The translations under genes were made by a program, and so were the position numbers. Below, one piece after another: positions 4,046-31,400 of a DNA stretch of 64,000 nt. Numbering within the stretch: the stretch's first letter is position 1; each line of letters begins with the position of its first letter. The notes beneath the pieces are model-generated. The model saw nothing but the letters and a program-made list of their open reading frames with translations, was not told where the DNA came from and did not search any database. Source of the DNA: Phoronis australis (Eukaryota; Animalia; Phoronida); assembly GCA_002633005.1 (NCBI GenBank), contig NMRA01000144.1, forward strand, positions 608,248 to 672,247. Direction: 5' to 3'.

Positions 4046-4132
4046 AATAAACGCATAAAATACAAGTGAAACACACGACTGCAGCACCGAACAACGCTTG
4101 GTGGTGTTGAGATGCCGTTGCACTGCTAAAGA

Positions 4133-10122: not shown

Positions 10123-12868
10123 GGCAATAAACTAAGTGTTAGACGTTCTTTGCAAGACCAAAAATCGCTTCTCAACTCTTGAGTAAAGAACAAGTTGCGA
10201 TCAATTTTATAGTGGTATGAAGTCTAAACATAGAACTCAAGAGTTCTACGGTATAAGCGAGTTTCTTCGACGCTTTATTGTCACTTTAAGATAAGTTTAG
10301 AAAATAAATGTACGGTTGATAATCAATACTTAAAAACTTGTTTGATAAAACTTGCGTCACAATCACGATGGTTGACAGTTTATTACTTTAACTGGATAAA
10401 TTTCATGACAGTATGTAGACTATACACATTTGGATTTGCATGTTATCTTATTTAAATCTACTAAAAGCGTGTGAAATTATTACCATATAATATAATCATA
10501 TAATTATGAAAACAATTAAGTGGATGCTATTATTCCACCCTCTAGTTACTAACACAATGGAGTCAGAACACGACATGGTAAGGTTGACCTAGGTCTGGCA
10601 ATGAACTGATGGAAACGGCAGAACGCGCAAATGGACAAAAGATTTTTACTCACATTTGTTCTCGCAACGTGACATCGGCGATATCAGTTTAAGTTATTTC
10701 AAAATAGTTTTTTCCACTTCTTGGAATGATTATGCACTATTCATACTTAGTAACTCCGGCACATGTTGCTTGTGTTTTCGTCACACACACGCAAGACAAC
10801 GCGCGCGCATTTTTCTTTGCTGGCGAACGGGCAAAACTTGCTCCCGCACATTATTCCCTGCTCGCGAAAGCTATTCTATACCCTCATACACCCTTCCCAT
10901 CTCTCGGACCACTTCGAATAACGCGATATAAAACCTCTACGCACAAACCAATTGGGAAAAGTAAACACATTTCCGTCAACTTTCGATTATTCGTTTACAT
11001 ATATTAGTGGCAATGTTTGTTAGGATACAGTGAGAAAGTTATTGAACACACTTTAAGCTCAACAATACACGTCGTCCTCTTATGCGGTGATACCTTGAAC
11101 ATGAGTATTGATAACGTATAGGAAATTTTTGCGATGAAATGTGGTAAACCGGATAACAGTTACAGTGTGAAGTGAGAGAAAGATAATTCTCATTTCATTA
11201 TATACCGTAATAACTCTATTGAAAAAGAAGCCACAAGCCCGCAGTTCACAATAGTATGTACAAACTTTATTCACGTGCAGACAGTCATTAAAGATTGAAT
11301 ATTTCGCTTCTAATCATCATTTGCCTTTGTTTGTACATGGAAATATTTTCTAAAATGTTTACTGCCCTCGACTTTGAAAGAGACCTGATATTTGATTTTA
11401 CCATATCCAAATAATTTATTGAAAAAATGAAATAGCAAAGAAAATAGTTAAGTTGCTGGATTTATCCGTCAGCGACGAAATCAAATGGCACCACGGGGAT
11501 AGAATAATGTGCGGGAGAAGAAAAAAGTATGTCCGTGAAAATGGAAAAGTGGTTTGGGAGGGGGAATATCGGTCCGCAAGAGGGTATTAGTGTGCACGAG
11601 AGAAGAATTTTGTGCTCGGGCAGGTCCGTACCGCTCGTAGGCAGGGAAGACCAAGTAGGCCTACCTTGATACGAGAGTTGGTAGGCGTGTAGACCTATAA
11701 TACAAATTGATAGCTTGCTCTACAGACATGCGACACAGGCAGAAGCGACGTTGGCCTTTGGGGATCTCCGAGATCTCGCGGTGTTTGCGTTTTGTACTCG
11801 GTACAAATGGTATATAAGTTAATAAATGTATCACCCCTCCCTCTCTCTCACTTTCCCTCTATCCAGAAATATATCGGTTAATAACACGTATTAAAAGCAA
11901 CCTGCTACGAGATTAACCCGTATCATTAAACAGGTTAACGGGCCTTAGCCGAAATGGAAAGAGAATGGTTTTTAATTAATAAATTCAGTTAAGAAGCTTT
12001 TTTAGGAAAAAAGGTCACAACCATTTCCAACTGCTTTCCGTTTCCACACAAGTCGAACTTCGTTACAACAGACATAGAACGGTTATAAAGGCAGTTATGT
12101 ATTCCATTGCTTTAAATTGAACAACATTGAAAATGCAAACAAGAGGTGTTATAACAGTAGTGAGCAATTGAGGTGTTACAGACACGTGAACATCTCTGTT
12201 TCTAACTGGGAGCACCATTCGAAATTCATCGTGAAAATGGAAGAATAACATTGGTAACAAATATCTAAACCGACAATACGTCTCAGTGCTACTACATTCC
12301 AAAATCTGAAAATGGCAGTCGACAACACAAGGCTGTGATAGCACGGTATTAACAACAAGACTACTCTTCTCTTACGGAGATACATTAAACTAAATACACT
12401 CGCTCTCCACAATTGGTATCGCAGCTACATGTACATGCAAAAGTTGATAATCTATTGCAGACTTCTCTGCTCTAAATATGTAATGGGTACTGTAACTACT
12501 GCGAGGCCAAATGACAAGCCTTTTAGACCCGAGATGCAAGAGAAAAAAACAGAAAGGTTTTTTATCAAATCAGACAGGCGATTCAGGTGCTCCCCGGAAT
12601 TGTCCACAACTAGTTGTTTGGCCCACTGATTCTCCGAGTATTAAAAAAACACATTTTCTCGAATATTTGGGTCAGTATGCGTGCACTGGAAACGCTCAGT
12701 AAAACCAAGGAGTATATTTTTTATCAGTATGAGTATAAAACTTCACTTAACCATTACAAAATGGAAGGCGCCGATGTGCATCCAATGTAGCATCGCCTAT
12801 TAAATGATAAAGATTGAGGCAAGACAAAAACACATAGAGAAATCTCAGCTCAAGAAATGCATATATGC

Positions 12869-13141
12869 AAGGGGTGCCGTTTGTGCCATAGTCTTGCTTC
12901 TCGCCGCTATGCTAGTTTTCAGACAGTATATGTATTCACTTACTTATTTCGAAACTTACTGAGTTGACCAGTCTATCACGTTGTCCATTTTCACGTTTTA
13001 AAAAGGGTTTTAAAAAATTACAAAAAACAAGAATTTCATTGTTTTATACCTCTGGCCAAAGCTAATGACTTCAAAAGTCTATCTCATCTAACAATAATAC
13101 CAAACATGCGTTATTTGGCCGTAAAAACGATGATCCCTAAA
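12869..13141 (+). mobile_element. Family B-related element (diverged)
   Basis: 3' part homologous to ~22150-22240; internal part (TTACTTATTTCGAAA...TGAGTTGACCAGTCTA...TTTCACGTT) homologous to ~690-760. Confidence 0.55.
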
Positions 13142-13646
13142 TGCGCGCATGCACACGTAACAACAAGTAGGCAAATTTATGCGCACCTTTGATTAAATTT
13201 TTATTTGTTTGAGAATACTTTCTGTCCTAAAACAGGTGCGTTCACCAAAAATTAAAATCACGTTATTTTTCCCTTCACGATGTATATGCAACTTTGCTCG
13301 GTATACATATAGGAGAGTGTTCTATTTGAAGTCATGTAGTACGGGGTTCCTAAGGTTTATTCATGGACGAGATAAAACAGCCCTACAATCACCTACTGAA
13401 CAGATGTTTACGTTATCAACTTAATTGTTTTCTCTGAAAGTCGATTTTTCATGGGTGAAAGTAAATTGCTAAAAACTAATTCATGAGTGGTTTAACCCAT
13501 TATCAGGGCATAAGAGCACAAAACTTTACTCGAGACAGACTCGCGAATGGAATGTAATCTGTCAATTTTCAAGATGGCACTCAATAGTTTTTTGAGGACG
13601 GTTGAATTTGGCTCCCCCCAATTTCATTGACAGTTGTTGGACTTAC

Positions 13647-13668
13647 CTTTGCTCAGTCGTGGCTTTTC
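13647..13668 (-). other. Candidate 22-nt exon
   Basis: Minus strand reads CTTTCTGTGTTTTATGTCACTTTAG|GAAAAGCCACGACTGAGCAAAG|GTAAGT, with near-consensus acceptor and perfect donor. Confidence 0.35.
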
Positions 13669-16600
13669 CTAAAGTGACATAAAACACAGAAAGCAGACTA
13701 AATTGCATTATTCAAAGTGGTTCTTTACCACTGATATACAAGTCAAACTGTTTACTAGGTACTTTTACGTTTTTATTCGTAAACTTAAGCTTTTGAATTT
13801 CTATTGATATCTAAGCATTTTTCATTTAGTTTCTAATTTAAAATAGCGACCAGTCAACTGCCCGTCACTTCTCCCACAAGGCAAAGCAAGTCTCCTTAGT
13901 TGGTAAGGTAAAACATAGACGTAACATATATTCTTTGGTGAAAACAAAACAATGGCGATTATGCATTTGGGAAACGTTTATTGGTGAATTCTTCGAGCGC
14001 ATGCGCACATTTACACATTATTAGAGGCAGAGAATTTGAAAACTGTTATTAGGATGAAAGTTTATAATTATTTGATCTGTGTTTCAAAATAGTGATTTTT
14101 CTCAAGAAATTCTTGCAATGTTCTGAGTGAACAACTCTCATGTTACCACCACCAAGAAGTACATTCGCCACCATCTGCTTAAAGGTATTTTTTACGAGTT
14201 TTCACGTTCCAAACCCCTTTAAACCTTTACTGCTTGCAAGCGGAAAGTTGAAATTTAGCAAGAAATTCAGGTACCCCTCAAACACCCTTAGATTTGTAAA
14301 CATATGGCTGGTCGACGTCCACTTCTCACCTGATTTCTGTAATCTAGAGTGTTATGACAGTCTGAATGCATTGTCTCATAGTTGAGAGTAATCGCATGCA
14401 AATGGTGGGTTGGGGTGAAAACTGCTGATTTGGTGCACTATTTATAGGTTTTTTAACTGTCCGCTTGCACTTCCGGTGGTCTTAAAGATGTATTTGCATG
14501 CTCCTCAGTATGCTAATGTATAGCAGGAACTAAACGTCTATTTGAACATCATCTACGCCAAACAAAGTGCAGTTGTATTCATTGACAGCAACAAATGTGA
14601 AAACAAAAATTCTGAAAACATGTGACCTTTGCACTAATGACGTACCGTGGGGGCTCACATAGCCCGCATCATGCAGTGTTATTATCCAACACCGGCCACG
14701 TCACTATACTTACTGGACACGGTTGAGTAATTTATGGCGGATCACTTTCGACACAAAACTCGTTCTTAGAAACATTTGGCAATTTTAAACGTACTTTATA
14801 TTCGCATCATCTCCATATGTTGTGTTTCTAACTAATTTGACCAAGCAATCACAGAGATAAGGAATTAGCGTGCAAGTTCCGCTTTAAATGATGGAAAATT
14901 GACTTTGGCATCAGTTTCAATAGACTTTGTGCAAGGTTTTTAAAGTCTCTGGCCAAGTACACTGTTCATATTTTCACCTTTTGCGCACCCTGTGGAACCA
15001 GTGCTGTACTGGTAAGTAGGCGCCCAAAGCCCACCTTGAACACTGAACGTAACTAATGGTGCGTAGGCGCTACGTTCAAATGCCAAAAGGTGGTTGGCTG
15101 CGCCTACGTCCCTGTGAAAGAGACTGTTAGAGCTGCCAAGGCATGGCTCTTCAAGCCCAAAATCAACAAAAACTGTCGAGTGCGACCTCAATTTACGTAT
15201 CCAGTCAAGATCGTTTCGTACTTTGGTCTTCTCGATTCCCATGATTGCACTGAGAGAGCACGGTCGTTGCAGACACTAAATTGCAAGATAACACACAACT
15301 GAGTATCAAGCTTCAATTTTCACCTTATGTACCAAATTAAGACTCTACGAAGAAACGGCGAAATTTGAGCCAAAACGTATAGGGAGCCCATGTACATTTT
15401 TTTTTCTCAAATCAAGCCATAATATACTTTCACATTTTGGCAATACCTCACGTTTTTTCCCTTTCTTTCAACTTCTTGGATTATGGAACCAAAGCTGAGA
15501 AGGGTTTGAGACTGGTTCGAAAATCTCGTGACTGACAAACAGTTTTACTCATTCGAGTAAAATGTAATGGTGAATGGTAAAAATAAAAAAATCGGTTGTA
15601 ACGGGATCGATGAGTTTGAGGCTCTAACACTAGTGCTAAAGTTTCGAAATATTTTGGAAACTTTCTCAGTGCAATCTGTCGCCTATAGTCTCAGCCCAGT
15701 GGCACAGGACCGACTGAGAGGTGTTACTCATTCCATTTGGAGAGGAAAAGTAGCTTTAAAATGAGCCCCACAAGTTTAAGTGTCAACGTGCCTTCATCTG
15801 TTGATTATCCGCTTGTTAACTCAATAGATTTGTGTGATGACCAACCGTTAATTAAGCCCTGGACAGTGTGGCTGATTCATCGTGCCTGGATGGGTCAATT
15901 GGATTAATCATGTCGGCTGTTAGGCATTTCAGCCGCTCACAGACAAGATATATTTCGAACTGTCGACAGTAGTAGAAAACCCAGAGACATGACGGCTTTA
16001 TAACAACTTAATAAAATATTTACTACCGTAATGTGACTTGTGCGAATGTCAGGGGTTTAATTAAATGCGAATTATTTCAATAGACAGTTTCATCCCTTTG
16101 GCCGTCTATGTAATCTATTGTGATGTTAGTGTAGACTGTTGGAGCACCGTCTCCGGCAGCAGCGCCGATCAGTTGAGAAGCGAAGATAAAGAGATACACT
16201 TAATTAGACGTTTATTGTGATTAAACCGACAATACCGCCGTCATGCGTTCAGGAAAATTTTGCATATCACTTTCGAAGCGCACGGGCCCGCATCTGGCGC
16301 CGTCTCGATAAAGAATGAAATACGTGTCGATCTGTTTTCTGTTATGAAATGACCGATTTTTTTACAAAGTTCGTTCAGAATTCTGAGTGCGAATTTCGCT
16401 CTGATTTTCGTAGTTAAAAAACGCTGCAGCAGGCGCCGAAGAGAAATATGCACTTGTTGGTCGTCTAGCATGTCTCTGTCTAAATGGTCATTGGAAAAAC
16501 TGTTGATTAGCGTTGAGTTATTAATGACAGAGCATGCTGGAGATCACACGAGTTTTGTCTTGTTAGACGCCTGTTTATACGGCGGCTAATTCTTGAACAG

Positions 16601-19600
16601 TACGTTATAGCACTTCATTAAGGAACCGTGTTCATTCTTGCCGCCGTTGGAACGGTTAAATAATCAAAAGTTCGTGATCGCGCATACACAAATGTTCCAA
16701 CAACACATTCTTAGCAATAACGTTTAAAGTCAAATCAATCCTATACCAATATTGCTCCAACGTCCGTCGATGTCATAAATCGAGAAGTGTGTTTTTATGT
16801 GTTTTATCCATTCCATTAACATTTACGGAGTGTTGCCTAATTTGATATTTTGACAAAACTCCAATTAACGGCCAGCGGAATCTGTGGTGGTGCATAAGTT
16901 GTCGGCGGGGATAAAACAGGAGTTAAACGGAAGACATGCATAGCACCAAAATCCATCACGTCTTGATAAGCTGTCACTTCTTTGGCATCAACGAAGACTG
17001 AATAAAGCTGCAAATGCCAGTGCTACCGTACTACAGTACAATTTGTTTGCCATCAACCAGATTGTAGTGAACTACTGAAATTACCTAACTAAATGCATGT
17101 ATACAAATAACCAGTCATTTGCGACATTGCATGTGTTTCTGACAATGACGATCCTGGGCAGATTAAAAGAAGTTAAAGAACCCAGTAGGGCCTATAGTAT
17201 TCAGCATTCGAACAGAAACGAGTCGCCTCGGGCGTGGTCAGAATTAACCTGGAGAAGAGTCCTATGATAAGCCACCCTCCAATTAGCACAGGTCACGGGT
17301 AGGTGAACAGACATGCCTGAGTCATTAATTCACTATGAATTTCAATCTTGTTATTATCTGGTAGTCTTACATGTTTAGTTACGTTACGTAACTGACCGGG
17401 TCACGACATGGCACGGAAAGGTTGCCGTTAGTTAAAGTGCTGGTCCCAGATCAAACGACACATAAGAAATAATAGTAAATAGCAGAGTACAGGGAGAGAC
17501 TAACTCATCCCATACATGACTGCTACTCTAATAAAACTTTACATATAATTATAAATTAATGGTACAAGTTAGCTGCCGAGCGAAAGTACCCACAAGTGAG
17601 ACAACACGACATATTTATTTCAAACCTTACAGCTAAACTATTTCGCCGGACTTATATTACAATTTTGTTTCTTTTCATTCAATACAAAAGTATTTATGCA
17701 CTCCAAGTAAAGCAAGAAAATGAAAAATGGTGAAAATCCCTTGCGTTGATATGTTTTTTATTCAAATAAACAGACATGCAGAACACCGTGTAGGTGGGTA
17801 TTATTAGCCTTACTAAAGCATGTTGTTGTATAACCAATACCTTCTGTTCAAAACAACTTTTGGTTTTCGCCTCTTGCCATTATGACATCGGTCTCCTATT
17901 GTTCCTTACATACTCTGATTAAAAATGCTTTCTAAGCTTTAGTACAGAACTGACACGTCGTTATGATTGCTTCACACTAGGTTCATTTTTTCAGCCCCCA
18001 AGGCAGTATATGGCCGTCAGGAGAAATCCAGGCGATTGAAACTTAATTCAAACAAAAGCAAAGAACGCGAAGAGCAAATAAGAACGTAGGTGTTTTTTAC
18101 ACCAAGGAACTTGATGACCAAAGTAGTAAAGCTAGAAACTCGAAATCTTGAGATTTTACTCGAAATCTCATTTTAAACCGATTTTAAGCTCAAATATAGC
18201 GGTCATCAAGTTAAAATTTGGACAAGAAACTCGTCTGCGTAAACCACAATGATCTCTAGCACAGAATAACAGACACTTATCTTGAGTTTGCACAAATATG
18301 ACAAATGCTGAATAGAAAACGTCAGAATTATTTTGGAGTTCGATACTAGTACAAAGGTCAGACTTTTGGCCCAGAGCATAACTTATAGCGGTAAAACTCC
18401 ACGAAGCGCCATCTGCGAAAGCAATTGTTTTGTTCCGTGTTTTGGGAAGGAACCCTTCATTTGTTTTTAATTTGAATACGCCGGGTTAGCTTTTCTAATT
18501 ACGCATGAAAAAAACATGGATCGAATGGACTTCATTGATTAATCCAGCGGAAAGATTCGCCATCTCTAACTTCATTTGTTTCACTTTAAATTTGTGATTT
18601 CGGCTTGACCTATGTGGGTCTTAGATATTCTGTATCATATAATATTATTGATAATCAAACTCGTTATTTTCCATTTGTCCAAATGTAGTCATAGCACTAT
18701 TGTGAATAGTTCTTGGCACACGACCAAGGATGACAGATCACAGCGTTCAGTGACAATGTCTCTACTGGGCGTCATGTTTGAAATGCAAGATAGCACCTTT
18801 CAGCTTCTCATTCTACAATTCAATACAGCGCGCAGCAGGGGGTAATCTCCGTCAGGTGGCTAAAAGTAGCGTGTCACTCGTTGGTCATACTCGGGTTTGA
18901 GATTAGAGCCATCCCTGCAAATTTTAAAGCGTGGCAGAGGTGATTTAAATACGGCATGAAAAAAGAACCACGCGTGACAGTCAAATGAACAAATCTAGAG
19001 CCTTGTTCATTAAAGTAGCTCACAGTAATTAAGGATTGAGGATCAAACAATTATGTAACTGACACTTCAGCCATTAAATGCCCGCCCAATGGATTTTGCT
19101 GCACTGGTATAAAACTTGCTGCGTGTTAAGCTCTGCAGCGTGATGCGCAAGTTCAGCTGTTGGATTACCAAACGACTTTTAGGCTTGTTTGGCTCAACAA
19201 TAAAGAGTTTTCGAAATCAATCTGATCTGTATTTTTTGTGATCATTAAAAACACGGATGTAGAACTTGATTTCTTAACAATCAGTCTAAGTTTTACAATG
19301 GGTTTCAAAGATGGCGCAACACGTGGCTTTAAGGTACAAGACGTCATTGGTTATTCAAGTGCACAATGGATGTCAAACTTAAAAAAGCAACTGTTCAACC
19401 AAAACTGAATGTCGTCGTTAGGTCCACTTATTTGGCTATCTACCAAACCGTTCTAAGTTTCTGTTAAAAAGTGGGTCAGACAGTTTATTGACGTAGACAT
19501 AAGCGAGGGTAGCCAATTAGTTCAACACGCCGAAAAACCCGCCAGGAATAACAGGTAACAGATCTCCGGACGCTGCTTAACTCCGGATTACTTCGGAAAA

Positions 19601-20347
19601 TTTTGGGCAGCACAGGTGAAGCTTTTTAGAGATTCTCACTACGTCCCTGACGACAAAATTATCAGCTGAAGTGCAGCATTGCTAATTAACCTCTGCCCGT
19701 CCATTGCATCTCTAGTTAAATATCAATAGCAATGCCCAGGTAGAATAAAACAAGATGCGATAGACTGACGTTGTCACCTTGGCAACCCAATGAGTCATAT
19801 CGTTGCACCACGACGGGCAATGCCCTGCTGCGTATGACAAGTGAGGCGCCCAGAATATTCTATTGACGGACAAACTTTTGTGACACACTCAATGCAAAAT
19901 ATATTGAATCGATCGAGTCAAAATGACATTGGTAACGCTGCGCTGACAATCAAAAATCATAAGCTTTGTAAATTCATTTGAGCCAGCGTGACAGGCGACA
20001 GGCCATCACGTCACCATTACGTGTGAAGAATTACCCAATGACAAGCACACTTTTCTTGGACGCGTGCCACACCATTACCTACTGTTTATCTTGGTTCGTG
20101 CTTCCCGCCATTTGGGTTCTGGCACTTATAGGTGTTGGGATTCCCCACAACACCGATGCACAAATGCGAAGAAGATTGAATGAAATGTGTAACATTATCA
20201 TAATTACGAAAAGAGAATTTATTGCGGATGTGAAATACACCAAAATAACACAACTTTACAACGAACACTTCTCCAAAACAAACCCAAATCGTGTCCTGAA
20301 AAGTTTCATCTAATCAGGGCATGTTGCCAGCGCATCGTCATCGCTAA

Positions 20348-20450
20348 CCAATCAAATAGCGTTACTGTGAAGATAACCTGTGACCTTTTAACCTAAATAA
20401 AAACCAAAACAAACCGCGATCGCTGGCAGTAAGTAAACGGGTTTCATTGT
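20348..20450 (+). promoter_or_regulatory. Candidate core promoter of the BH3-only gene
   Basis: CCAAT at 20348-20352, TATA-like TAAATAAAA from 20394, Inr-like CAGT (~20427) and TCATT (~20443), in a CpG-rich context ~300 bp upstream of the ATG. Confidence 0.4.
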
Positions 20451-20517
20451 GTAATGACACAACAGAAAGGAAACTGAGTGCGATAGCATCGCAAGCCAAG
20501 GTGAAGTCTGGTCATAC

Positions 20518-20670
20518 GTGAGTCGATCTGACTTAGTGGATCATAAACATTAGCGAGAAATACATATGTACTCGTTGCCACTTATACGGACGCTAGCCAT
20601 GTGACTCACGCTACGTGATGTATATTAGCAGTAGGCTCGTAGAACTAAATCAGTTTTTGGTCAGCTGCAG
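20518..20670 (+). other. Candidate 5' UTR intron of the BH3-only gene
   Basis: Donor-like AC|GTGAGT at 20518 and acceptor-like TTTTTGGTCAGCTGCAG ending at 20670. An alternative donor CA|GTAAGT lies at 20429, so the boundaries are uncertain. Confidence 0.3.
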
Positions 20671-20734
20671 ACGATCGTAAATCGATTACTACACTGGGTT
20701 CACGAGGGACTGGTACGCTTGCTTGCCCAAAGCG

Positions 20735-21196
20735 ATGGCACGCTCGACAAACACGTGCAATTCAAAGTCATGCACTAACGGAGTAAACGCCCGTGCAGAG
20801 TTTTCACCTGAGCAAGAGGACAATATTAAAGACGTTGATGACGCTAATAACAACGAGATACCTGGAAACATTGACTTAAACAACAACGAATATTTCATAT
20901 TGAACAACAACTTAATACAAGAGGGCAACCCTCTTAGGGAAATGGCGATCCACGAACAAGTAGGCTTAGAGGGTGCCGTCGGACCCGACCCGACGTGTAT
21001 ACAACAGGTTGCCGACCAGTTGCAACAGATTGGCGATCAGATGGAGGACGAACTCGTGGCCTCTCGAAGAAACCTTCCATCGTTAGACATTCTGAATGGA
21101 TTAAGATATTTCCTTTCGTCTCAGACAGACTCCTTAGTGCTAAGTGCCCACCTTATCCATTCAGTGATAGTTGTGGTTGTGCTCTTGAGACAGTGA
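20735..21196 (+). CDS. Putative BH3-only pro-apoptotic Bcl-2 family protein with C-terminal tail anchor (BIK/BID-like architecture), 153 aa
   Basis: Longest ORF in the window; first in-frame ATG at 20735 in good Kozak context (gcgATGg; the track's TTG start at 20723 is not used). Residues 89-107 IQQVADQLQQIGDQMEDEL fit the BH3 consensus (hydrophobic I89/V92, L96, I99, G100-D101, M103). Residues 134-151 LVLSAHLIHSVIVVVVLL followed by RQ-stop form a tail anchor. Orthology to a named vertebrate gene cannot be assigned by eye. Confidence 0.8.
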   Translation: MARSTNTCNSKSCTNGVNARAEFSPEQEDNIKDVDDANNNEIPGNIDLNNNEYFILNNNLIQEGNPLREMAIHEQVGLEGAVGPDPTCIQQVADQLQQIGDQMEDELVASRRNLPSLDILNGLRYFLSSQTDSLVLSAHLIHSVIVVVVLLRQ

Positions 21197-21249
21197 AAGG
21201 TAAGAATCTGTTAGATTTTGATTTAATTATTTTTGCTGCATGTTGTCTC

Positions 21250-21324
21250 CAGGGGCGGATCCAGGATTTTGAGTTAGGGGAGACCAGGGCAAAGTTGCCC
21301 CCCCACCCCCTAAATCCGCCACTG
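21250..21324 (+). mobile_element. MITE family A, internally deleted copy
   Basis: Same termini CAGGGGCGGATCCAGG / TAAATCCGCCACTG; flanks GTCTC / GGCTC (4/5 TSD match). Confidence 0.75.
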
Positions 21325-21662
21325 GGCTCAGACAACATGTCAAATCACAATAAAATCAGGGTATTGTTCCTCAAGATCCACTATTTAGCAAGTCATGACG
21401 TCAAATACAGTTATCCCAGTGCCCCGGTTTCAGGGTTAACGTTACATGATTAAATAGGGCATCAGATAAATGTTAGTGTATGTTATTTGAAAGGCCATGA
21501 AGGTCGGTCAAAGAAATCACTGGTAAACGGCACAATACACAGCCCTTTTCGGTGGCACCATCTGATTGGGGAAAATTGTAGTAAAACTGGAAAAGCAAAA
21601 CTAGTAATAAGATCCAGAAAAGTAAAGAACTAGTGTCCGTAGTTTTGCCAACATGTAACAAG

Positions 21663-21682
21663 TATCAAGCCCAGACTTGTCT
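21663..21682. promoter_or_regulatory. p53/p63/p73-type response element
   Basis: TATCAAGCCC-AGACTTGTCT: two RRRCWWGYYY decamers with zero spacer, both cores intact, second decamer perfect, 18/20 overall. A further degenerate half-site CAACATGTAA lies at 21649-21658. Confidence 0.5.
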
Positions 21683-21769
21683 TGGATAGTGAATGAAGCA
21701 TTGTTCTTTCTACAAACAAAACACTGTAGAATCGCGGCTACAATTGTATGCGTATAAGTGTATGTGTAA

Positions 21770-21797
21770 GTGTGTGTGTGTGTGTGTGCGCGCGCGC
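21770..21797. repeat. (TG)n(CG)n microsatellite
   Basis: Uninterrupted alternating purine-pyrimidine tract. Confidence 0.9.
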
Positions 21798-21898
21798 ACC
21801 CGCGCGCTCACCAGCGTGCGTTTACAAATAGCTTCAGTATATACGGTTACATGTTACAGTATAACGCGAGATTTTCCTGAAAGCTGTACCATATTTAA

Positions 21899-22236
21899 AG
21901 GGATATTAGTGGCGCGAAACGTGATTTTCTGGAACCACCCTCAATATGGAATCAAACATGCAACCCCGCGGTCATAGCCTAACGCTCTGTCGGTGAAGCT
22001 AAACCTTACTCGATGAACGGCAAAGTAATAAGCGTGTTTAACAAACTGATTGGTCACCGACCTTGATTTCAGCGAATGCCTGGCAGATAACGGCTAGAAT
22101 TTTCGATTTGTAATAAAACTACAAAACAGCGATTCTTGTTGTTTAACAGCTCTGGTCAAAGCTAATAACTTCAATAAGTCTATTCCAGCCAACGATAATC
22201 CCCTGCGTTTTTTGGCCGTAAAACCGATAATGTCCC
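21899..22236 (+). mobile_element. TTAA-flanked non-autonomous DNA transposon, family B (Kolobok/piggyBac-like)
   Basis: TTAA-AGGGATATTA ... TAATGTCCC-TTAA; the 3' part (CTCTGGTCAAAGCTAAT...GGCCGTAAAACCGAT) recurs at ~13050-13140 and ~70-172. Confidence 0.7.
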
Positions 22237-24331
22237 TTAAAATAAACTTTTTTATTTCAAAAGCTGAGCGAGGTGCGCCACTTCAGTTGTCAACTCCATC
22301 GATGGAGTCAACCCCAAATCAAGATAACGAGATTTGAAAACAATTCTGGCTGCGATCCATTTGCTGAAATGGTAAGCGAGTACGGGTGATAAGGGAACAC
22401 AAACAAACACTGCCTTTTGTTGTCAGACGTAGTTCCAGTGTCCTAAAAATAGATCCAGTCAGTTTGGAATAAACCACAAATCACCCCTCGCGGGCTCGTG
22501 TCGCGTCGTTACTACACCAAACGTCAGTCAATTGGGTCGTTGACTCATATTAGAAGATAAATTTTTATTGAAAGCACTTCGGCTCATTTTTGTTTACTAT
22601 TCATATGACTTTTTCAATCGTGATTCAACCATTCTACCAGGAAAAACTTGGCCCCGAATCAACATCGTGGCGCCAGTCGAAAATCTAGAATAATAGCACT
22701 GACAATTTCGTGAACAGTGTTATTTTTGTCATACGCCTATGTTGACAAAACTCAATAAGCTGTGATAGCGCCTTTACGACGTGTTGTATTCTAATGTTCG
22801 ATTTTGCACCATTCGGACGATCACCTCAGAGCCATAGATACGCGAATCGCCATCAATAACCAAAACAAACAACAGCTAGGGTCACTAAGAATTAAAAAAG
22901 CTTACAACACCATTTTGTGTGAAGTTATCCAGGCGTTGTATAGTAAACACTGTGTCGGTTGGTTGTGTGCTGGGTCAATAACTGTGTGTGTCGCGAACAA
23001 GTGGATTTGTTTTGACGCGTGCCTACACTTGTGTCGTTGTTAATTCGATATTAATTTACCACAGAGAATGCGTTTTTAAGAGGACAGGATTATTTTATTG
23101 CAACACATATCGGTGTTGTAACAAACAAAAAGGAAGCGCTGTTGAAGATACATGTTATTCTCTCCTGTTATTACGAAGTGTCACTTCTGGATTGAGTTTT
23201 CTAAATATACTTTCTTTCTGTTGCTCCTCAGCGTTCACAAACTACGTTTTATTTAATAACTTAAAAAGATTGTAAAATGAAAATTCCCAAATAATGAGTT
23301 CAATAGTCGTGGCTCAGTAAACGGATATTTATGTAAATCCCCGGAAAGATTTAGGAAAACCCCAAAAATCATACGAGATCAAACAGCAGTCATTCAAGGC
23401 GGGGACACGGGTCAAAACATGGAGATACGGCCATGACCCTTTATCAACTAATTTTAAAACGAACTTTCTTATCTATTTCTACACATTGCTTTATGGAATT
23501 CACGACTTAACACAGCCACGTTTATGGGACGCAGTGAAAGAATGTCTCACAGACAGGAATTATTTAATGAATCATAGGCTGATTAATGCAAAATTGTTAT
23601 TAATAGCATTCACACAGCGGCTATCATTAATACATAACTGCAGGCTTTAATCTACAAAGAACGAGGCACAAATATACATTTGCCATAAATAAAACAAAAT
23701 AAACAAGCGACAAATTTCAACACGCCGCAAAGAAGTTGTCGAGCCGTATGAATTCCCATGTGTAAGAAGTTCCTGGATAATGTTCAAGCAAGTGCTCTGT
23801 TAAATTTTATCTTCTCTGTGTCTTTTGTTTACAAGAGAGGGCTATTAAGATAATATGTGATTGACACGTGCCATTTATTCGCCGACCTGCTCAGACTCGA
23901 TCGAAGATTTCCAGGAGCTAAGTCCTTTTGCAGGTTTTCTCTTGCTTATCCAAATATTATCCGCAGGATATTAAATTGTGAGCCCTTTGTCAAGTGCTCA
24001 GACCCGGGGCTCAGACAGACGGCTAGTTTGTGCATTTCACTGAACAGGTTTTCATAAGCAGCCAGATCGATAGAAAATGATAACCAACAAAACTGTTGAT
24101 AGACTTTCGATCGCTAAACAACTGCATTAGATTATCGCTATGACTCACCATTATGCCTGTCGCAAGTATATACTCGAGGTATGGCTCCTTTTTCGTCACG
24201 TATCGAACGCAACAGTGATAGGACAGTCCAATATCACTTCTTACGCAAAACGTGCACCTCTTCATTTATTGCAATCTAAGAAGCATCGAAGGTTACGTAA
24301 CGCACAAGATTAAATTTGTGATTTGTCTTAT

Positions 24332-24522
24332 CGAATTAAAATTAAGCTTTTTGGTATACATTTTTAAATAAAAGCGTCCGACCTTTAGTCATGTGCCACC
24401 GTTAAGTTTATATTTAGTTGATTTGTGCTCTGAAAATCTTGAGCGAATTAAAATTAAGCTTTTGGTAAACATTTTTAAATAAAAGCGTCTGACCTTTAGT
24501 CATGTGCGACCGTTGAAGTTTA
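24332..24522 (+). repeat. Recent tandem duplication of ~78 bp
   Basis: CGAATTAAAATTAAGCTTTT...TAAAAGCGTC(C/T)GACCTTTAGTCATGTGC at ~24332-24410 and ~24444-24522. Confidence 0.85.
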
Positions 24523-25617
24523 AAAGCTTCAACAGTCGCACATAACTAAAGGAATGATTTCTCTAAAAAGGTATGGTACCGTCGAGAATCCCAAGCACCA
24601 GAAATCAAAACGAGGAATTTTGTTTCGGCCTGTGACACATAACGTCCTGAATCAAATTGTCCAACGACAAAACCGTTACGCAATTGCTTCACACATTCGC
24701 CAAACGTGGACTGGAGTCCCCAGAGGTCCAGACGGTGCCTGGTCATTGCGGTTTATCCAAGTAACTGACAATACACGTTTATATGGCAATCCTTACTTTG
24801 TGTATTCAAGCGAGGAAGAGGCAATTTAACGACTGAGGGGGCATAAATAAATGCTGACACTTGACACTACAGCATTTTTTTTTCTGGAAAAACACCACAT
24901 CACGGCCGACAATTCTACACGTATATGGTTGTTTGAGAAAAACTAGTCGCACATTTATGGTTAAATATAATGAATTGATAAGATTGTAAGGTGATTAACC
25001 CTGTATGTTGAATTAATGAACCAGTCGTTTAACAAGCAATGAAAAGATATCAGAAGACGAATTTTCAATCATTCTGATAAAGAGTCGGCCATTGTATAGT
25101 GTTTCGACAAGCACTCGTTAACTCTCCAAATAAGTAGACGCCCTATCCAAATTAATATACTGTAGACCATTATATAAAACTGCTCTTGTGATGGAAAACT
25201 AAATTCAACGGTAACATAACAACGCTAGACTTGAGGGTGACCGATTTGTTCTGTGAGAGAGCAATAAACGGCGCTCACGTGTTTTGGCATCAAATCTAGG
25301 TACGAAAAATAGACAAAAGCTTCAATAAAGCGTTGTTTAAACATACACTCACCTTTCTGCCCGAGGGTGAAATGTCTATCGATTGATCGTGTTTCAAGAT
25401 ATTTTGTACATTTGAACTTTGACGATTTAATTGGATTGTTTTATTTGAGCTAGACCTAACGTGAAACTTCATTGAATGGTGCACCTATTGCAAATCATGC
25501 TCCACCCAATCGCGTAAATATTGAGTATGAAATGCTCGGCTTTTTGATAGTTCAGGTGCGGATAAGGAGTTATTGAACTGAAAATATCACTGACCTCATT
25601 TCTATTTGTTATTTCAG

Positions 25618-27605
25618 ACTACAGAATACATGGGCCGCCACGTACATTAATTTTCATGGTGGTGCATCGCTGACCTGTATGCAGTAGGCCTACTACCTTT
25701 CAGCAATTCCATGGTGACAAGATCTCGTCTCAAGAATTGTCAGCGTGCTAGATGAACTGAAAGCATGTATTGGGTTCGGATCTCATCGGTAGGAGGAACG
25801 CGAGAGAGAAAACATCCGCATATGTCGCTAATACGTCATCAAACGCAATGCTAAACAGCTTTTCATCGGTACGGACAGGTGCGCGCTTTGATGCTACTCG
25901 CGACTGGCACAAAATTCGAAGAGACGTGGCATTCGCTGCGCTGCTAGGACGACATTCGAAGTGCCTGGAAAACGTGGATGATAGGATGATTCATTCTTTG
26001 GCACCGATTCAACAAGTCGTGTGGAAGACGTTAGGGGTATATCACTTGTCCAGCTTGGCGAGAAAACATGGACTTGTGTGTAAGAAATGATCTCATCTGT
26101 ACAGTTGATAGTCACTTGTTTATATTTGCGACCTTATTGGCTCAAGGCTAATTGTTTAGTTGAGGATCTCTTGTGAACTTTATTGACGAGATCTCACTCG
26201 ATTTGAGACTTTGTTGAATATGTTGGCGACCACGTGGTGGTGATTTATTAAATATTTGTAACACGTGTAAATAGAACAAATTTTTCTAAACTTTTTATTG
26301 TTTGATCTACCGATCCGAGGTATCTACCTTCGCTTTTTGCTCACTTGTAAACGTCCCTTTATCCGGTCAATATTTAGGCGGATTCTCTATCGACCAGTTA
26401 CTACCGACTAGTACGTTTTGTAATCTTCCACTGTATCTCCGGGCGCTAAAATCTAAGTGCGTAATAATGATTTTAGCACGCGGGACGATATTCTGCGCAG
26501 CAAACATTCGAGAACAACCTGGGCACAAAGTTGGCATTGAGCCAAAGTTTTTGTTCCAAACTTTCCGCCACGGGGTTTTTCACGGTTCAAGCGATGGGAT
26601 GTCAAAGGTCGCACGATTATGGCACGAGGCCAGGTGAAGCGACACGTGTTTATTGGGTGCCTGAGATGATTGACAACCCTTTGTTGGCATCGTTATATTG
26701 GGCGCTACAAGTGGGACTGAGCGATGATTTACCTCAAGCGGTAATTAAAATTTTCACAATGATCTCAAGAATGTACATAGTGTGGTTTAGTTAGATTATT
26801 TGTAAATATGTACTTACTTTTGTGCAGGTAACTGTGTTGGTCACCAAGTTACGCCAGTAACAAGAGATGTGCCATAACTGAGCAATTTCTCTCTTTAACA
26901 ACCCGTGCAATTGACGTGACATTTCCAGTTGAATTTGTTTTGGTTATGCAAGTGCAATGCGACATTAGATAGCTATCTGAATGTCAAATTCGAAACTTAG
27001 TGCCTCATACAATAGAGCCCAAAGACTGTCCTTGGTGACATACGCATGTACTTAACCAGTATTATCCATAAAAGTTGAAACGGCAAGTATTGATTTATGA
27101 CCAGTATTCTCCCCTCACTTAGTCAGGTGCTCAACACATAGTCAGTTTACAAATGTGGCTTTATCAGCATCACTTGAAAATCACATTGGGCAATTTTTAA
27201 AGTTGATTCAAGTTGGAACAATGTGTATACTGTCACCACTTTAAAACATTCTATTGGAACCAGTACTGTGTTGTTTATGTTTAATTTATTTTTCGTTTGT
27301 AAATATGTAATTCCTGTTATTGTTTTGTTATTATTATATTTAATAGTCAGGTGCTTGATTGACTGACAAACATTGATGTGTGCCATAGAACAAATTAAGT
27401 CAGGTAGCACACAAGAAATTGATGTTTATGGAGTATTAAACTTAAAGTCTCCCTTTGTTCAATTCCAAAATAGACATGGAATAGAAATGGGAAGTTTGTT
27501 GGTTTTTTTTGAAATTTGGAATTGTCATGTTGAATTCCTGCAAAATGGCAAATGAATCCTTGTTGTGCAAGAAATTGAAAATAAAATTGCTGTAAATGTA
27601 AATTT
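25618..27605 (+). other. Candidate terminal non-coding exon (3' UTR) of the BH3-only gene
   Basis: Starts at a strong acceptor; contains four Pumilio TGTAHATA elements (26266, 26772, 26801, 27298), U-rich tracts and conserved-miRNA seed matches on the + strand; AATAAA at 27580-27585. Confidence 0.5.
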
Positions 27606-27973
27606 ATTTGCTTATTGCAAAAAGTCAACAAGAGCAATGGACAACTTCACCTATATGAATGAAATCTCTAAAGTGTGAGGATGCAAAATTGTACTATTAA
27701 CTAATTAAGTTCATAACAGTTTTATTTTTAAGAAACTTGTGACAATTTTTACCAACAAGCACAATGAACAGATCTAGTGACAAATCGAAAACCACACAAT
27801 GCATGTAATTTAGGTGCAGGACCTCCTGAGAGGCACTCTTCTCAGTCAGGGTGGGTAAAATGAATTTTAAATCAACCAATCAAGTCAACACCAATTCCAA
27901 ATTGATACATTTCGAGTTACTTGAAACTTGAAACTCATTTTTTGAAAAACCAAGTGGAATTATCCTATACCCA

Positions 27974-28135
27974 CAGGGGCGGATCCAGGATTTTAAGTAA
28001 GGGAGGCCATGGCAGAGTATTAGCCAGGATTTTGCCCATCAGACATTCGCACCCCTGTAGTGCCAAATGAAATCTAGGATAATTTTAGGGGGGGGGGGCA
28101 TGGCCCCCTCCCCCCCCCCCTTAAATCCACCACTG
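27974..28135 (+). mobile_element. MITE family A, full-length copy
   Basis: CAGGGGCGGATCCAGG...TAAATCCACCACTG flanked by ACCCA direct repeats (27969-27973, 28136-28140). Confidence 0.85.
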
Positions 28136-28434
28136 ACCCATTATCATACAGCCACAATATACAGGTGCTATTTAATGGTCAGATACAAAGAAACTTCTTT
28201 TTCCTACAAAACACCCATTTGATATGGAAGCAAATGCCAGCAAATAACCATTTGATATGGAAGAAACAACAAAACCTGTTCCAAACATCACACACAGATG
28301 AGACTTTACACTTGTAACAGTTTACTGGACTTTTTTAATACTCCAAAGCACCAAAAGAAACAAGCTAATCATAATATTTTTGACTTCTTTGAAGCAATAA
28401 AATATGAATCAAAAATACAGCTACCTTTTAGTCA

Positions 28435-31400
28435 TTTATTATACAGTGTACTACATTGCTTGACAATTCATTCACAAAAATCACTAGCAATTTTTTAACG
28501 AGTTTCTTGCAACACCTGTGCAATCTGCAACCAGAATGAACAATAGAACAATGTTTGGAAGAGGACACAAAAACACTGGAGCAATCTGTGCAAAACTGCT
28601 TCAGCACCACAATCCTGGTTGGCACTAGGATAAATGAGTTTTTGCTCTGGTTCAAATACTTTTCCATATCAGGGACCTGGAAATAATAACTATTCAAGAC
28701 TCAATGACACCAAACCTCATCATAAATTTAGTTACATTTGTAAATAAACAAAAATATATACATGGCCATAACTTACAAAATGTTCCTATTTGATACAGAT
28801 TTCTTTAAAAACAATTCGACATTGATTGTTAGATAACTCCTGTCTGCATTTCTCCTATTGTCTAAAAATACTCCTTGTGTGGGGATCCGATCTGTGCAGT
28901 AGTTCCCAAGCAACATGGTTAAAAGAACAAATGATAGAAAAATTGTTTTAAAAGATCATGTTAGACCTTAGTACTTCTAATGTACACTACATTCATGAAG
29001 GAAAGAAATAAAAGAGATCTCAGTGAGTAGTACCAGACATCATAGTAAAAGTCATGACATAACAAACCATGCACAACACAGAAATAGTCAGGGTACTTGG
29101 CATAGCAGGTTTTTAACGAAATCTGCATCAGAGAGGAGCTACTTCCAAATTTGGCTGCTGTCCACTGAATGGAAACAAATAAATGTAAACACATTTTAAC
29201 AACACCCTGAAACCCTTCTCAGGATGCAGGACAACATGGTGCAGTTTGAAAATAAAATAAAAAAATCTTTCATGTGAAATCCAACTATTCTTGAACAATG
29301 CTTTATCAACAATGAAATATGTCAATTTCAAATATGAGAATGGTGAAATTAAGCTAAATCAATAGCAAAAACAAGTAAAAGTTGCCTGCTGAGTGAAATG
29401 AATATACATGTATCTAACTCCTGTCATAGAAATGAATATATCTAACTCCTCTCGTGGCAATGAATATATCTAATTTCTTTTGTAGGAATGAATGTATGCA
29501 ATTTCTCACTTCTTTTGTAGAAATGAATGTATCTAATTTCTTTTGTAAGAATGAATATATCTAACTTCTTTACTAGAAATAAATATATCTTTTTTTTCAT
29601 AGGCATGATTTTTAAAAAAGAGAAAAACAATTTTGGATTGCACTGTTTCAATTTTCAAGGTCTCAAGTTACATAGGTATAGAACATGTTAACAATTAATT
29701 TATTTTGGTACATGTACTTAAATGAATTTTTTCAAAAAAAAAACAAGAAAATTGGTGAAAAATACTTTATTTGCAACATACAAAATGCAGATGGAAGACC
29801 AGTTGAGAATTTTGTTTTTCAAATATCAAATATTAAATTGGGTGCTGACAAAATCAAAAGCATGGCTTAATATATATTTCCTGGATAGTCAATAGAATAT
29901 GTTTCTTTCTTGTTTCTAGTTAGCTATCACTGTAGGGAATTTCTAATATCAGTGTTTTCCTTTCAGGCCACATCACTTGCTCCCTGGAGTTGTAACAGTA
30001 AAATCTTATAAACTTAAGACACAATATGCCAGAGAGGTGAAACTTTATTTTCTCATTTTTGCTAAATGATGTACAGTGCCAAAATGATGCTTTGCCCTAT
30101 CCATGTTCTGTACCATAATTACCAACAGATGTTTTTTAAAAAAACGTGGGCATTCACAGGAATGTTAGAAGATGTTGAATAATTTTTGTCCATACAGTAG
30201 CACTGGTGAAAGGCATACTGCTTACAAGTGTAAATATGGACAGGAAAACCTCTCAACAGTATGCTGGTTTAAGCTGTTAATTACGTATGACCAGCACATC
30301 ACAGGTGCAAACCAAGGGCTCATCAATCATTTCAGATGCTTGTCATTTAGTAAGTCATTGTGGGAGTCCACTATATCAAAAGGTTAACCAAATAGAAATG
30401 TGCACAAATAACACTACTGTGTCTAATCCTGGCTCAACAGATTGGGTTTCAGTTTAAATACAATAAAAGTAGATGATTTTAAGCAACAGTAGTTAACTTT
30501 TCTACTACTGAAGCTCCAGTGTTACATGTGGCAACACCAAAACTTCAGCTTCAGAGCCAATAGGCAAGGCCTTTAAGACAAGGGGAGTATTAATTCTGCA
30601 TAGCTAATGCCTCAACAGTGACTAAGAAACTCCTTATGAAAATATTCCTGCATGTTACATTCTCTGAAAGGCATTACCTCCACACAGCAAACAAAACAAC
30701 ATTGTGCTCTGCAGCTATAAGAGGGGATAATGCCTATGCCTTGTGGCACTGAATGGATCTTAGGGTAGTTTTATATGCTATGACTTGACTTTACTCATAT
30801 TAGTGGTGCAATTTGAAGTCACAAATAACACCACTAGTTGTTAAATATCAATTTCTAACAAAGCACATACCCATGACAAAAAGAATTGTCTGGTCATCTA
30901 AACATAAAATAAAATAAACAAAATGTTAAGTAACAGAATATGTTCTGAAACCAAGTTTAAATAATTTAATAGCGTGGTCATTTCACTTATTTCAATCATT
31001 ACTCTTGCTAATAATGCTGTAGTTGATGTTGTTTTTACTATTATCACCTGATTAAAACAGAGCATTTAGACATTTCTTTCTGGCAATTTTTGACTACTGT
31101 ATTCATTCCAGTTAATACTCAACTCTCCAAATTTTGATTTTTAAAGCCCATGCTCCCCTCAACGTTTTACCGATGTTTATACCAATCCATAGTTACTCAA
31201 TTAAATGTGCCAGTGTCTTCATGAAAGCCCCTATCACACAATTATCATTCCCAAAAGATATGTAATGTGTTTACCTTTGAGTAACCAACAGTCAGTTTCA
31301 GTGGAACCTTGCATATTCAGGAGGGAAAGTACTGTCAACTAATCAACTAATTGACAAACATTATACCGGCAAACAAACTTTCATTTTGTCAAATAATGAG

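What the first reader, a model, noticed from the sequence alone, without database searches (positions are those of the whole stretch)
26266..27387. Dense repressive code in the putative 3' UTR: four Pumilio elements and paired ancient miRNA seeds
Seen on the + strand: TGTAHATA at 26266, 26772, 26801 and 27298; GTGCAAT (miR-92/25 seed) at 26905 and 26952; GTGCCATA (miR-183/263 8mer) at 26869 and 27380; CAGTATT (miR-200b/miR-8) at 27057 (8mer) and 27102; TACCTCA (let-7 7mer-A1) at 26730. Known: miR-92 represses vertebrate BIM; miR-263 and Pumilio/Nanos repress the fly pro-apoptotic gene hid. Inference: this independently supports the gene model and points to conserved post-transcriptional restraint of a death gene.
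Basis: partly seen in the sequence, partly recalled or inferred. Interest (0 to 1): 0.7.

Follow-up and report, generated by a model that had tools for sequence, protein, structure and literature searches.

The report
Bantam/Pumilio-rich tail of BH3-only gene
This stretch is the spliced, transcribed 3' tail of an invertebrate gene for a likely cell-death trigger (BH3-only-like protein); it carries far more Pumilio elements and matches to the anti-death microRNA bantam than chance gives, which likely keep the gene switched down, as known for death genes of flies and nematodes.

Summary
All listed motifs are at the stated coordinates. Stranded RNA-seq shows the region lies in a ~2-kb last exon (25618 to ~27600) spliced to an exon with a 153-aa BH3-only-like ORF (joint 21199^25618, GT..AG, 22 reads), so it is the 3' UTR. 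Four Pumilio elements are real enrichment (0.18 expected; 0 of 3000 shuffles). The seed pairs survive a panel-level test (4 families with two or more 7mer-m8 sites against 0.54; 1 of 2000), but total seed density is only marginal and the let-7 site is chance-level. Best reading: a BH3-only-like mRNA likely held down by bantam, Pumilio and a few ancient miRNAs. Not shown: the animal's phylum, that it has bantam, site conservation, binding, or killing activity. No protein homologue was found. A new member of a known kind; more interesting if the animal is a mollusc, where BH3-only genes were reported missing.

The parts
20473..21199 (+). Exon 1 (5' leader plus whole coding sequence); 5' end approximate
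   Evidence: X1 contig 20473-21138; stranded read depth from the 20301-20555 bin on; donor GT at 21200
20735..21196 (+). 153-aa ORF, BH3-only-like, acidic/Asn-rich N-half, hydrophobic C-terminal tail
   Evidence: a 4-nt deletion at 20717 seen in 4 of 4 runs lies just upstream of this ATG, which argues against a longer N-terminal extension
21008..21046 (+). BH3-like motif, residues 92-104 (VADQLQQIGDQME)
   Evidence: only match of a recalled BH3 pattern in six frames of the window; Pfam BID E 0.033, below cut-off; aligns to the BAX BH3 helix in 4bdu_A, E 0.038
21131..21187 (+). Predicted tail anchor, residues 133-151
   Evidence: highest 19-residue hydropathy 2.43; helix 134-152 in a low-confidence model
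21200..25617 (+). 4418-nt intron that starts 3 nt after the stop codon
   Evidence: joint GT..AG, 3 reads in X3 and 19 in X4, 0 in X1 and X2
25618..27600 (+). Last exon, wholly 3' UTR; 3' end approximate
   Evidence: unbroken one-strand depth in 3 of 3 raw-read runs up to the 27441-27695 bin; X1 contig ends at 27585
25721..25726 (+). bantam/miR-58 seed match, 6mer
25779..25785 (+). bantam/miR-58 seed match, 7mer-A1
26086..26095 (+). bantam 8mer inside AATGATCTCA, the complement of nt 1-10 of snail bantam
26165..26170 (+). bantam/miR-58 seed match, 6mer
26190..26196 (+). bantam/miR-58 seed match, 7mer-A1
26758..26767 (+). second bantam 8mer inside AATGATCTCA, 4 nt before a PRE
26266..26273 (+). 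Pumilio element 1
26772..26779 (+). Pumilio element 2
26801..26808 (+). Pumilio element 3, followed directly by a second TGTA; part of a 14-nt word repeated at 27296
27298..27305 (+). Pumilio element 4, followed directly by a second TGTA
26730..26736 (+). let-7 7mer-A1 (single, chance-level)
   Evidence: seed
26869..26876 (+). miR-183/263a 8mer (pair with 27380-27387)
   Evidence: seed
26905..26958 (+). two miR-92 7mer-m8 sites (26905-26911, 26952-26958)
27048..27055 (+). miR-252a 8mer
27057..27108 (+). miR-8/200b 8mer (27057) and 7mer-m8 (27102); a further 7mer-A1 at 27432
27121..27405 (+). AGTCAGGT three times (27121, 27345, 27398); unexplained, matches none of the 61 seeds tried
   Evidence: top 8-mer, family-wise 0.007
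27380..27387 (+). miR-183/263a 8mer
27580..27585 (+). AATAAA, likely polyadenylation signal
   Evidence: only AATAAA in the exon; coverage ends here; no poly(A) loose end was listed

Best explanation
The region is the spliced 3' UTR of a transcribed gene for a 153-aa BH3-only-like protein, and its six bantam-family seed matches, four Pumilio elements and four pairs of ancient miRNA sites likely act together to keep this predicted pro-apoptotic mRNA repressed. Shown: transcript structure, strand, motif positions and enrichment. Inferred: bantam-loaded Argonaute binds mainly the proximal 600 nt (5 of 6 sites), Pumilio and miR-8, -92, -183/263a and -252a bind the distal part, and both routes recruit deadenylation and block translation, which sets a threshold so that low-level transcription does not kill the cell. 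Inferred from family knowledge: the protein is tail-anchored in a membrane and its BH3 helix neutralises pro-survival Bcl-2 proteins. Inferred from the bantam signal alone: the animal is a protostome.
For: Splice joint 21199^25618 with 22 reads and one-strand coverage of both exons. PRE 4 vs 0.18, 0 of 3000 shuffles, 0 antisense, 0 in the 4.4-kb intron, 0 of 60 real tiles of the window reach 4; the ATA tail is the commonest after TGTAH (4, next 2). GATCTC is rank 1 of all hexamers in an unbiased ranking (6 vs 0.26; 0 of 300 shuffles have any hexamer as extreme), GATCTCA rank 1 of heptamers (family-wise 0.01), antisense 1; still 1 of 2000 when 4-mer content is fixed and 0 of 2000 in local shuffles of the proximal part; 4 of 6 sites have the A opposite nt 1. 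Bantam seed GAGAUC(A/G) and protostome origin from published tables (PMC4326209 section 20; PMC7328434 passages). Seed pairs 4 vs 0.54. 0 of 26 SNPs fall in 186 motif bases, 2.4 expected (P 0.078, weak). Protein: BH3 pattern, hydrophobic tail; 8 of 10 listed Atlas rows are BH3-only families or PXT1 (0.81-0.90). Precedent: miR-58/bantam family represses egl-1 (PMC5322734 passages); bantam and miR-263a/b repress hid (PMC2885982 passages); Nanos represses hid through an NRE-like sequence (as cited in PMC6519790); miR-92 binds the Bim UTR (PMC6942046 passages).
Against: No homologue of the protein in four searches, so BH3-only identity rests on a 13-residue motif; Pfam BID is below its cut-off (14.2 vs 25 bits), the Atlas recognition score 2240 is under its 2300 mark, and the BH3 pattern appears in 6 of 40 shuffled windows. 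The phylum and the presence of bantam are not established. Total seed density without bantam is marginal (121 of 2000) and the second panel alone is not enriched (8 vs 6.1, P 0.27). Other protostome-only seeds add little: miR-87 has two 7mers (P 0.036), miR-2, -36, -67, -277, -279, -1993, -12, -750, -317 have none. Sites are not more accessible than the UTR average (percentiles 4-83). The Nanos+Pumilio motif is not enriched (10 vs 6.4-8.6). In C. elegans egl-1 has no PUF elements and is not bound by PUF-8 (PMC10565243 passages), and its single miR-58 site has only a small effect. No binding or repression was measured.
Confidence: 0.6

Rival explanations
1. Only bantam and Pumilio matter; the miR-92, miR-183, miR-8, miR-252a and let-7 matches are partly or wholly chance picks from a large set of possible seeds.
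For: 7mer-m8 total without bantam 9 vs 6.8 (494 of 2000), 8mers 4 vs 1.9 (258 of 2000); none of these words passes the family-wise ranking; miR-183 and miR-252a entered the panel after I had seen their sites; the real UTR repeats 7-mers more than shuffles do (205 vs 157 +/- 12).
Against: The pairing statistic holds on shuffles (1 of 2000), real tiles (0 of 60) and matched pseudo-panels scored on the real UTR, which absorb its repetitiveness (54 of 20000); no internal duplication explains the pairs.
Confidence: 0.25
2. The GATCTC sites are selected but read by something other than bantam, such as a lineage-specific miRNA or an RNA-binding protein, because the animal may be a deuterostome invertebrate lacking bantam.
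For: Phylum unknown; candidate BH3-only proteins are reported in echinoderms, hemichordates and cephalochordates (PMC8998228 passages); most other protostome-only seeds have no site; a second unexplained word, AGTCAGGT x3, shows that unassigned motifs exist here.
Against: The sites have the shape of miRNA sites (fixed 6-nt core, A after 4 of 6, two extend to nt 1-10 of snail bantam); the string gagauc occurs 0 times in one sea-urchin miRNA paper's text; ten seeds taken only from that urchin table give 1 site vs 3.0 expected.
Confidence: 0.15
3. The UTR is truly under Pumilio and miRNA control, but the ORF is not a death gene: it is some other small tail-anchored protein whose BH3-like helix is incidental.
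For: No homologue; sub-threshold Pfam hit; uninformative structure model, mean pLDDT 41.6; PREs and seeds are common in regulatory mRNAs of all kinds.
Against: The window's only BH3-pattern match in six frames falls in the only clear transcribed ORF found; Pfam, PDB and Atlas all point to the same BH3 segment or to BH3-only families; BH3-only proteins are known to escape homology searches across phyla.
Confidence: 0.15
4. The TGTA-containing words are polyadenylation enhancers (CFIm-type UGUA elements, recalled) and not Pumilio sites.
For: 18 TGTA vs 11.8 expected (P 0.035), two of them just behind the AATAAA.
Against: The excess is carried by the full 8-mer with the ATA tail; three of four PREs lie 770-1300 nt upstream of the only AATAAA.
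Confidence: 0.06
5. Everything is compositional chance in AT-rich DNA outside any transcript.
For: The distal part is T-rich; single-motif tests were chosen after looking.
Against: RNA-seq places the region in a spliced last exon; PRE and GATCTC enrichment survive di-, tri-, tetranucleotide and local shuffles, strand and tile controls.
Confidence: 0.02

Closest known systems
[quoted passage not shown]
   Same: BH3-only mRNA with a bantam-family site in its 3' UTR, proposed to prevent precocious death
   Different: egl-1 has one miR-58 site with a small effect and a dominant miR-35 site, and no PUF elements (PMC10565243); here six bantam matches, no miR-36/35 site, four PREs. No sequence homology to EGL-1 was found.
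Drosophila hid 3' UTR (bantam, miR-263a/b, miR-2 family, Nanos; PMC2885982 and PMC6519790, passages read)
   Same: About 2-kb UTR of a pro-apoptotic mRNA; bantam, miR-263/183 and Pumilio/Nanos-type inputs all have counterparts here
   Different: Hid is an IAP antagonist (recalled), not a BH3 protein; no miR-2/K-box site here; the Nanos+Pumilio motif is not enriched here
Mouse Bim 3' UTR (miR-17~92; PMC6942046, passages read)
   Same: BH3-only mRNA with two miR-92 sites among multiple seed matches, acting as a rheostat
   Different: No Bim_N or Bclx_interact Pfam match here; vertebrates lack bantam; miR-92 is a minor signal here
PUM1/PUM2 target UTRs with neighbouring miRNA sites (PMC2522278, passages read)
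   Same: UGUAHAUA 8-mers near miRNA sites; one PRE lies 4 nt behind a bantam 8mer
   Different: Binding not shown here; invertebrate host
Tail-anchored BH3-only proteins BIK/BMF/PUMA and PXT1 (Atlas neighbours)
   Same: About 150 aa, one BH3 motif, hydrophobic C-terminus as in BIK (recalled)
   Different: Feature scores 0.81-0.90 only; no alignable homology; cannot be assigned to any one of them

Membership tests
BH3-only proteins | BH3 motif with the conserved Leu and Gly-Asp and four hydrophobic positions | tested here: met
   VADQLQQIGDQME, residues 92-104 (pattern recalled and written after seeing the ORF); aligns to BAX BH3
BH3-only proteins | Match to a curated BH3-only family profile | tested here: inconclusive
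   Pfam BID 14.2 bits vs cut-off 25, E 0.033; Atlas 0.90 at best, recognition below 2300
BH3-only proteins | No other BH motifs or Bcl-2 fold; largely disordered | tested here: inconclusive
   No Bcl-2 Pfam hit; single-sequence model has mean pLDDT 41.6 with helices only from residue 86 on and cannot decide
BH3-only proteins | Binds pro-survival Bcl-2 proteins and promotes apoptosis | not testable with these tools
   No Bcl-2 partner sequence of this animal was available
BH3-only proteins | Orthology to a named member (BIM, BMF, BAD, BIK, PUMA, EGL-1) | tested here: not met
   0 hits; it works like a BH3-only protein at best and is not filed under any named member
Pumilio (PUF) target mRNA | UGUAHAUA in the 3' UTR, sense strand, above chance | tested here: met
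   4 vs 0.18; 0 of 3000; antisense 0; consensus as in PMC2522278; inside the UTR
Pumilio (PUF) target mRNA | Binding by Pumilio and derepression on site mutation | not testable with these tools
   needs CLIP/RIP or reporters
Nanos response element mRNA | Excess of the Nanos+Pumilio composite motif HWWDUGUR | tested here: not met
   10 vs 6.4 (P 0.105) and 8.6 (P 0.37) (motif)
bantam/miR-58 family target | Seed matches to GAGAUC in the 3' UTR above chance | tested here: met
   6 sites, two 8mers and two 7mer-A1; rank 1 of 4096
bantam/miR-58 family target | The organism encodes and expresses bantam (protostome) | not testable with these tools
   No genome held; no Rfam match in the window; phylum not recoverable
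bantam/miR-58 family target | Sites conserved across related species | tested here: inconclusive
   No related locus found; within-species SNPs 0 of 26 in motifs, P 0.078
miR-92 / miR-183 / miR-8 / miR-252a targets | Multiple canonical sites above panel-level chance | tested here: met
   4 families with pairs vs 0.54; totals not enriched
let-7 target | Site above chance | tested here: not met
   one 7mer-A1, P 0.065-0.15

The most novel reading that the evidence does not exclude
This is a BH3-only gene of a spiralian (mollusc, annelid, brachiopod or kin), a group in which such genes have been reported missing, and repression of BH3-only mRNA by bantam is an ancestral protostome circuit shared with nematode egl-1. 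The UTR code would have outlived all protein similarity, so clusters of bantam sites plus PREs could be used to find the missing BH3-only genes across protostomes.
Probability: 0.25. Interest if true: 0.75.

Novelty: new member of a known kind. Interest (0 to 1): 0.5.

Why it matters
Repression of pro-apoptotic mRNAs by miRNAs and PUF/Nanos proteins is known from fly, worm and mouse, so the kind is not new. What is new is an unannotated BH3-only-like gene with no detectable homologue whose strongest UTR word is the bantam seed match. A 2017 oyster paper states that no BH3-only homologue had been found in Mollusca (PMC5550854 passages), and a 2022 survey could not link BH3-only proteins across protostome branches (PMC8998228 passages). 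If the animal is a spiralian with bantam, this locus makes two open questions testable: whether these phyla have BH3-only triggers, and whether bantam control of the death trigger predates the nematode-spiralian split or arose repeatedly.

Tried and rejected
No whole genome is held, so no genome-wide UTR background and no search for a bantam hairpin; backgrounds are shuffles and 60 tiles of this window. No RNA holder was listed; the three raw-read runs came by species label and were laid instead. Protein homologue searches found nothing: word-indexed; 1.84 billion representatives, 0 at E 0.001; metagenome loci, 201 candidates, 0 confirmed; a 22-nt UTR stretch had 0 metagenome matches. Placing the phylum through neighbouring genes failed: 140 of 140 minus-strand frames of 42 aa or more right of the gene gave no Pfam match at cut-off (6 weak hits), exon scans gave no convincing candidates, and one candidate frame had no homologue; plus-strand frames and frames left of the gene were not scanned against Pfam. 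Rfam: 0 matches in the window. AlphaFold on the single sequence was uninformative, so no fold search was run; no complex prediction was run for want of a partner. Internal duplication as the source of site pairs was rejected (only a 14-nt PRE word repeats, 9 of 1000 shuffles show any 14-mer repeat). ARE, CPE, Musashi, K-box, Brd-box and GY-box words (recalled) are not enriched. Site accessibility is neutral. Earlier scan notes: three look-ups returned nothing. Sato et al. 2007 and Brennecke et al. 2003 were not read; they are known here only as cited in PMC6519790, PMC2885982 and PMC5322734. Literature searches for bantam with BH3-only (9 listed of 11, top 20 of 1009 and top 15 of 122) listed no such case outside nematodes, but subscription papers are mostly not held.

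Full report
Observation. The window is eukaryotic-looking DNA of 28-44% GC with no other gene that I could identify.

Is the region part of the BH3 transcript? Yes. One search listed one contig set holding about half of the sampled words (X1) and three raw RNA-seq runs with the same species label (X2-X4). Laid on the window, reads from 3 of 3 raw runs cover about 20470-21199 and 25618 to about 27600 with the first mate on the minus strand only, which in most stranded libraries means + strand RNA. A joint skipping 4418 nt with GT..AG ends links the two blocks (3 reads in X3, 19 in X4, none listed in X1 or X2); it also fixes the strand. Depth is unbroken across the second block (X4 18-42x up to 27440, 7.8x in the next bin, 0 beyond). 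The only AATAAA is at 27580 and the last X1 contig ends at 27585. No single record spans the exon and no poly(A) loose end was listed, so continuity and the 3' end are inferred from depth. Exon 1 holds an ORF from ATG 20735 to TGA 21194-21196, and the intron begins 3 nt after the stop. By the usual 50-55-nt rule (recalled) this intron position would not trigger nonsense-mediated decay.

The protein. It has 153 aa: an acidic, Asn-rich N-half, VADQLQQIGDQME at 92-104 and a hydrophobic tail at 133-151. A recalled BH3 pattern matches once in the six frames of the window, in this ORF; 6 of 40 shuffled windows also give a match somewhere, so the motif alone is modest evidence. Pfam gives BID over this segment at E 0.033, below cut-off. 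The PDB search aligns it to the BAX BH3 helix at E 0.038, among 4 weak hits of which the others are unrelated. ESM Atlas neighbours are PXT1, BMF, BIK, BIM and a PUMA-named cluster at 0.81-0.90, with a recognition value under the tool's mark. No true homologue was found and the fold model is uninformative. BH3-only identity is likely, not shown.

Pumilio elements. TGTAHATA (consensus as in PMC2522278, passages) occurs 4 times against 0.18 expected; 0 of 3000 di-, tri- and tetranucleotide shuffles reach 4; the antisense strand and the intron have none; the maximum in 60 real tiles of equal length is 2. Two elements share a 14-nt word in which a second TGTA follows directly. The Nanos+Pumilio composite motif is not enriched.

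Singly, the miR-183 8mer pair has P 0.0003, miR-8 0.012, miR-92 0.025 and let-7 0.065, but these were picked after looking. I therefore used seeds from published tables: 28 families from PMC4326209 Table 4 (section read) and 23 more from snail and urchin tables (PMC7328434 and PMC6039759, passages; major arms chosen by me, and miR-183 and miR-252a added after their sites were seen). Without bantam (50 seeds), sites of 7 nt or more number 19 vs 12.6 (121 of 2000 shuffles), 7mer-m8/8mer sites 9 vs 6.8 (494 of 2000) and 8mers 4 vs 1.9 (258 of 2000). There is thus little excess in number. But four families (miR-8, miR-92, miR-183, miR-252a) have two 7mer-m8/8mer sites each against 0.54 expected (1 of 2000 shuffles, 0 of 60 tiles), and matched random panels scored on the real UTR reach this in 54 of 20000 draws. 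The pairs are probably real as a group; let-7 is not supported.

An unbiased ranking of all words puts GATCTC first among hexamers: 6 copies (25721, 25779, 26089, 26165, 26190, 26761) against 0.26, and no hexamer in 300 shuffles is as extreme. GATCTCA is first among heptamers (4 copies, family-wise 0.01). The antisense strand has 1, and the other 62 kb has 7 on + and 8 on -. The excess survives fixing 4-mer content (1 of 2000) and local shuffling of the proximal 603 nt, which holds 5 of the 6 (0 of 2000). GATCTC is the complement of nt 2-7 of bantam (seed GAGAUCG in Echinococcus, GAGAUCA in snail), listed as of protostome origin and absent from vertebrates. Two sites are 8mers inside AATGATCTCA, the complement of nt 1-10 of snail bantam, two are 7mer-A1 and two are 6mers. 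One 8mer lies 4 nt before a PRE. With bantam the 28-family panel gives 15 sites vs 6.8 (P 0.003). A second word, AGTCAGGT three times (family-wise 0.007), matches none of the 61 seeds tried and stays unexplained.

Selection. No related locus was found, so conservation is untested. Within the species, 0 of 26 SNPs listed in the UTR fall in 186 motif bases, 2.4 expected (P 0.078): right direction, not significant, and the motif list was drawn up after looking.

Mechanism. Most likely the mRNA is made at a low level and held down after transcription: bantam-Argonaute on the proximal cluster, Pumilio and four paired miRNAs on the distal part, together causing deadenylation and translational block, so that the BH3 protein appears only when transcription rises or the repressors fall. 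The layout is shown; binding, repression and killing are inferred. [quoted passage not shown] Against a simple conservation story: egl-1 has no PUF elements (PMC10565243), hid is not a BH3 protein (recalled), and most other protostome-only seeds have no site here.

What is not known. The phylum: no genome is held and neighbouring frames gave nothing. A protostome is inferred only from the bantam signal, which is circular until checked. If the animal is a deuterostome, GATCTC needs another reader; the string gagauc does not occur in the text of the one urchin miRNA paper checked.

Novelty. miRNA and PUF/Nanos restraint of death genes is established, so this is a new member of a known kind. Searches for bantam with BH3-only listed no case outside nematodes (open-access library only; supplements not read). 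An oyster paper reports no BH3-only gene in Mollusca (PMC5550854, passages), a survey calls them only potentially present in Lophotrochozoa and could not link them across protostome branches (PMC8998228, passages), and a 2024 lophotrochozoan survey mentions them only in passing in the passages found (PMC11463336). Other papers seen as passages: PMC4617964, PMC3840308, PMC11501031. Verdict: observation confirmed, interpretation partly supported and improved by the bantam cluster; interest 0.5.

Noticed in passing
window 21200-25617: The gene's only detected intron starts 3 nt after the stop codon, so the coding sequence is in one exon and the 3' UTR is a separate exon.
   Followed up: yes
window 21663-21682: p53-like site (two decamers, 2 mismatches, one perfect half) 460 nt into the intron; 3 such sites with at most 3 mismatches exist in the 64 kb, so it is not significant alone (consensus recalled).
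   Followed up: partly
window 20566, 20599, 20618: Three upstream ATGs in the 5' leader (12-codon, start-stop and 20-codon uORFs) could add translational restraint.
   Followed up: no
window 20717-20720: Polymorphic 4-nt deletion seen in 4 of 4 runs, just upstream of the ATG.
   Followed up: partly
window 27121, 27345, 27398: AGTCAGGT three times (12-nt TAGTCAGGTGCT twice); top 8-mer of the UTR, no matching seed among 61 tried; perhaps a lineage-specific miRNA site or a DNA element.
   Followed up: partly
window 26271 and 27385: ATAGAACAAATT occurs twice, each holding a miR-375 7mer-A1 and each abutting another site (PRE 1; miR-183 8mer).
   Followed up: no
window 27696-28802: Low-level opposite-strand RNA signal and two X1 contigs (28364-28526, 28620-28802) suggest a convergent transcript ending near this gene's 3' end; its gene was not identified.
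   Followed up: partly
window 1-20400: About 20 kb upstream with no gene recognised by eye or by the exon scan; within 10001-20400 the reads were mostly partial matches to repeats. A long regulatory region is possible.
   Followed up: no
window 21249-21325, 27975-28135, about 3915-4290: Short interspersed repeat with G-run and C-run arms, abundant in the transcriptome reads.
   Followed up: no
window 24330-24530: An approximately 100-nt direct duplication followed by a short inverted copy inside the intron, seen by eye.
   Followed up: no
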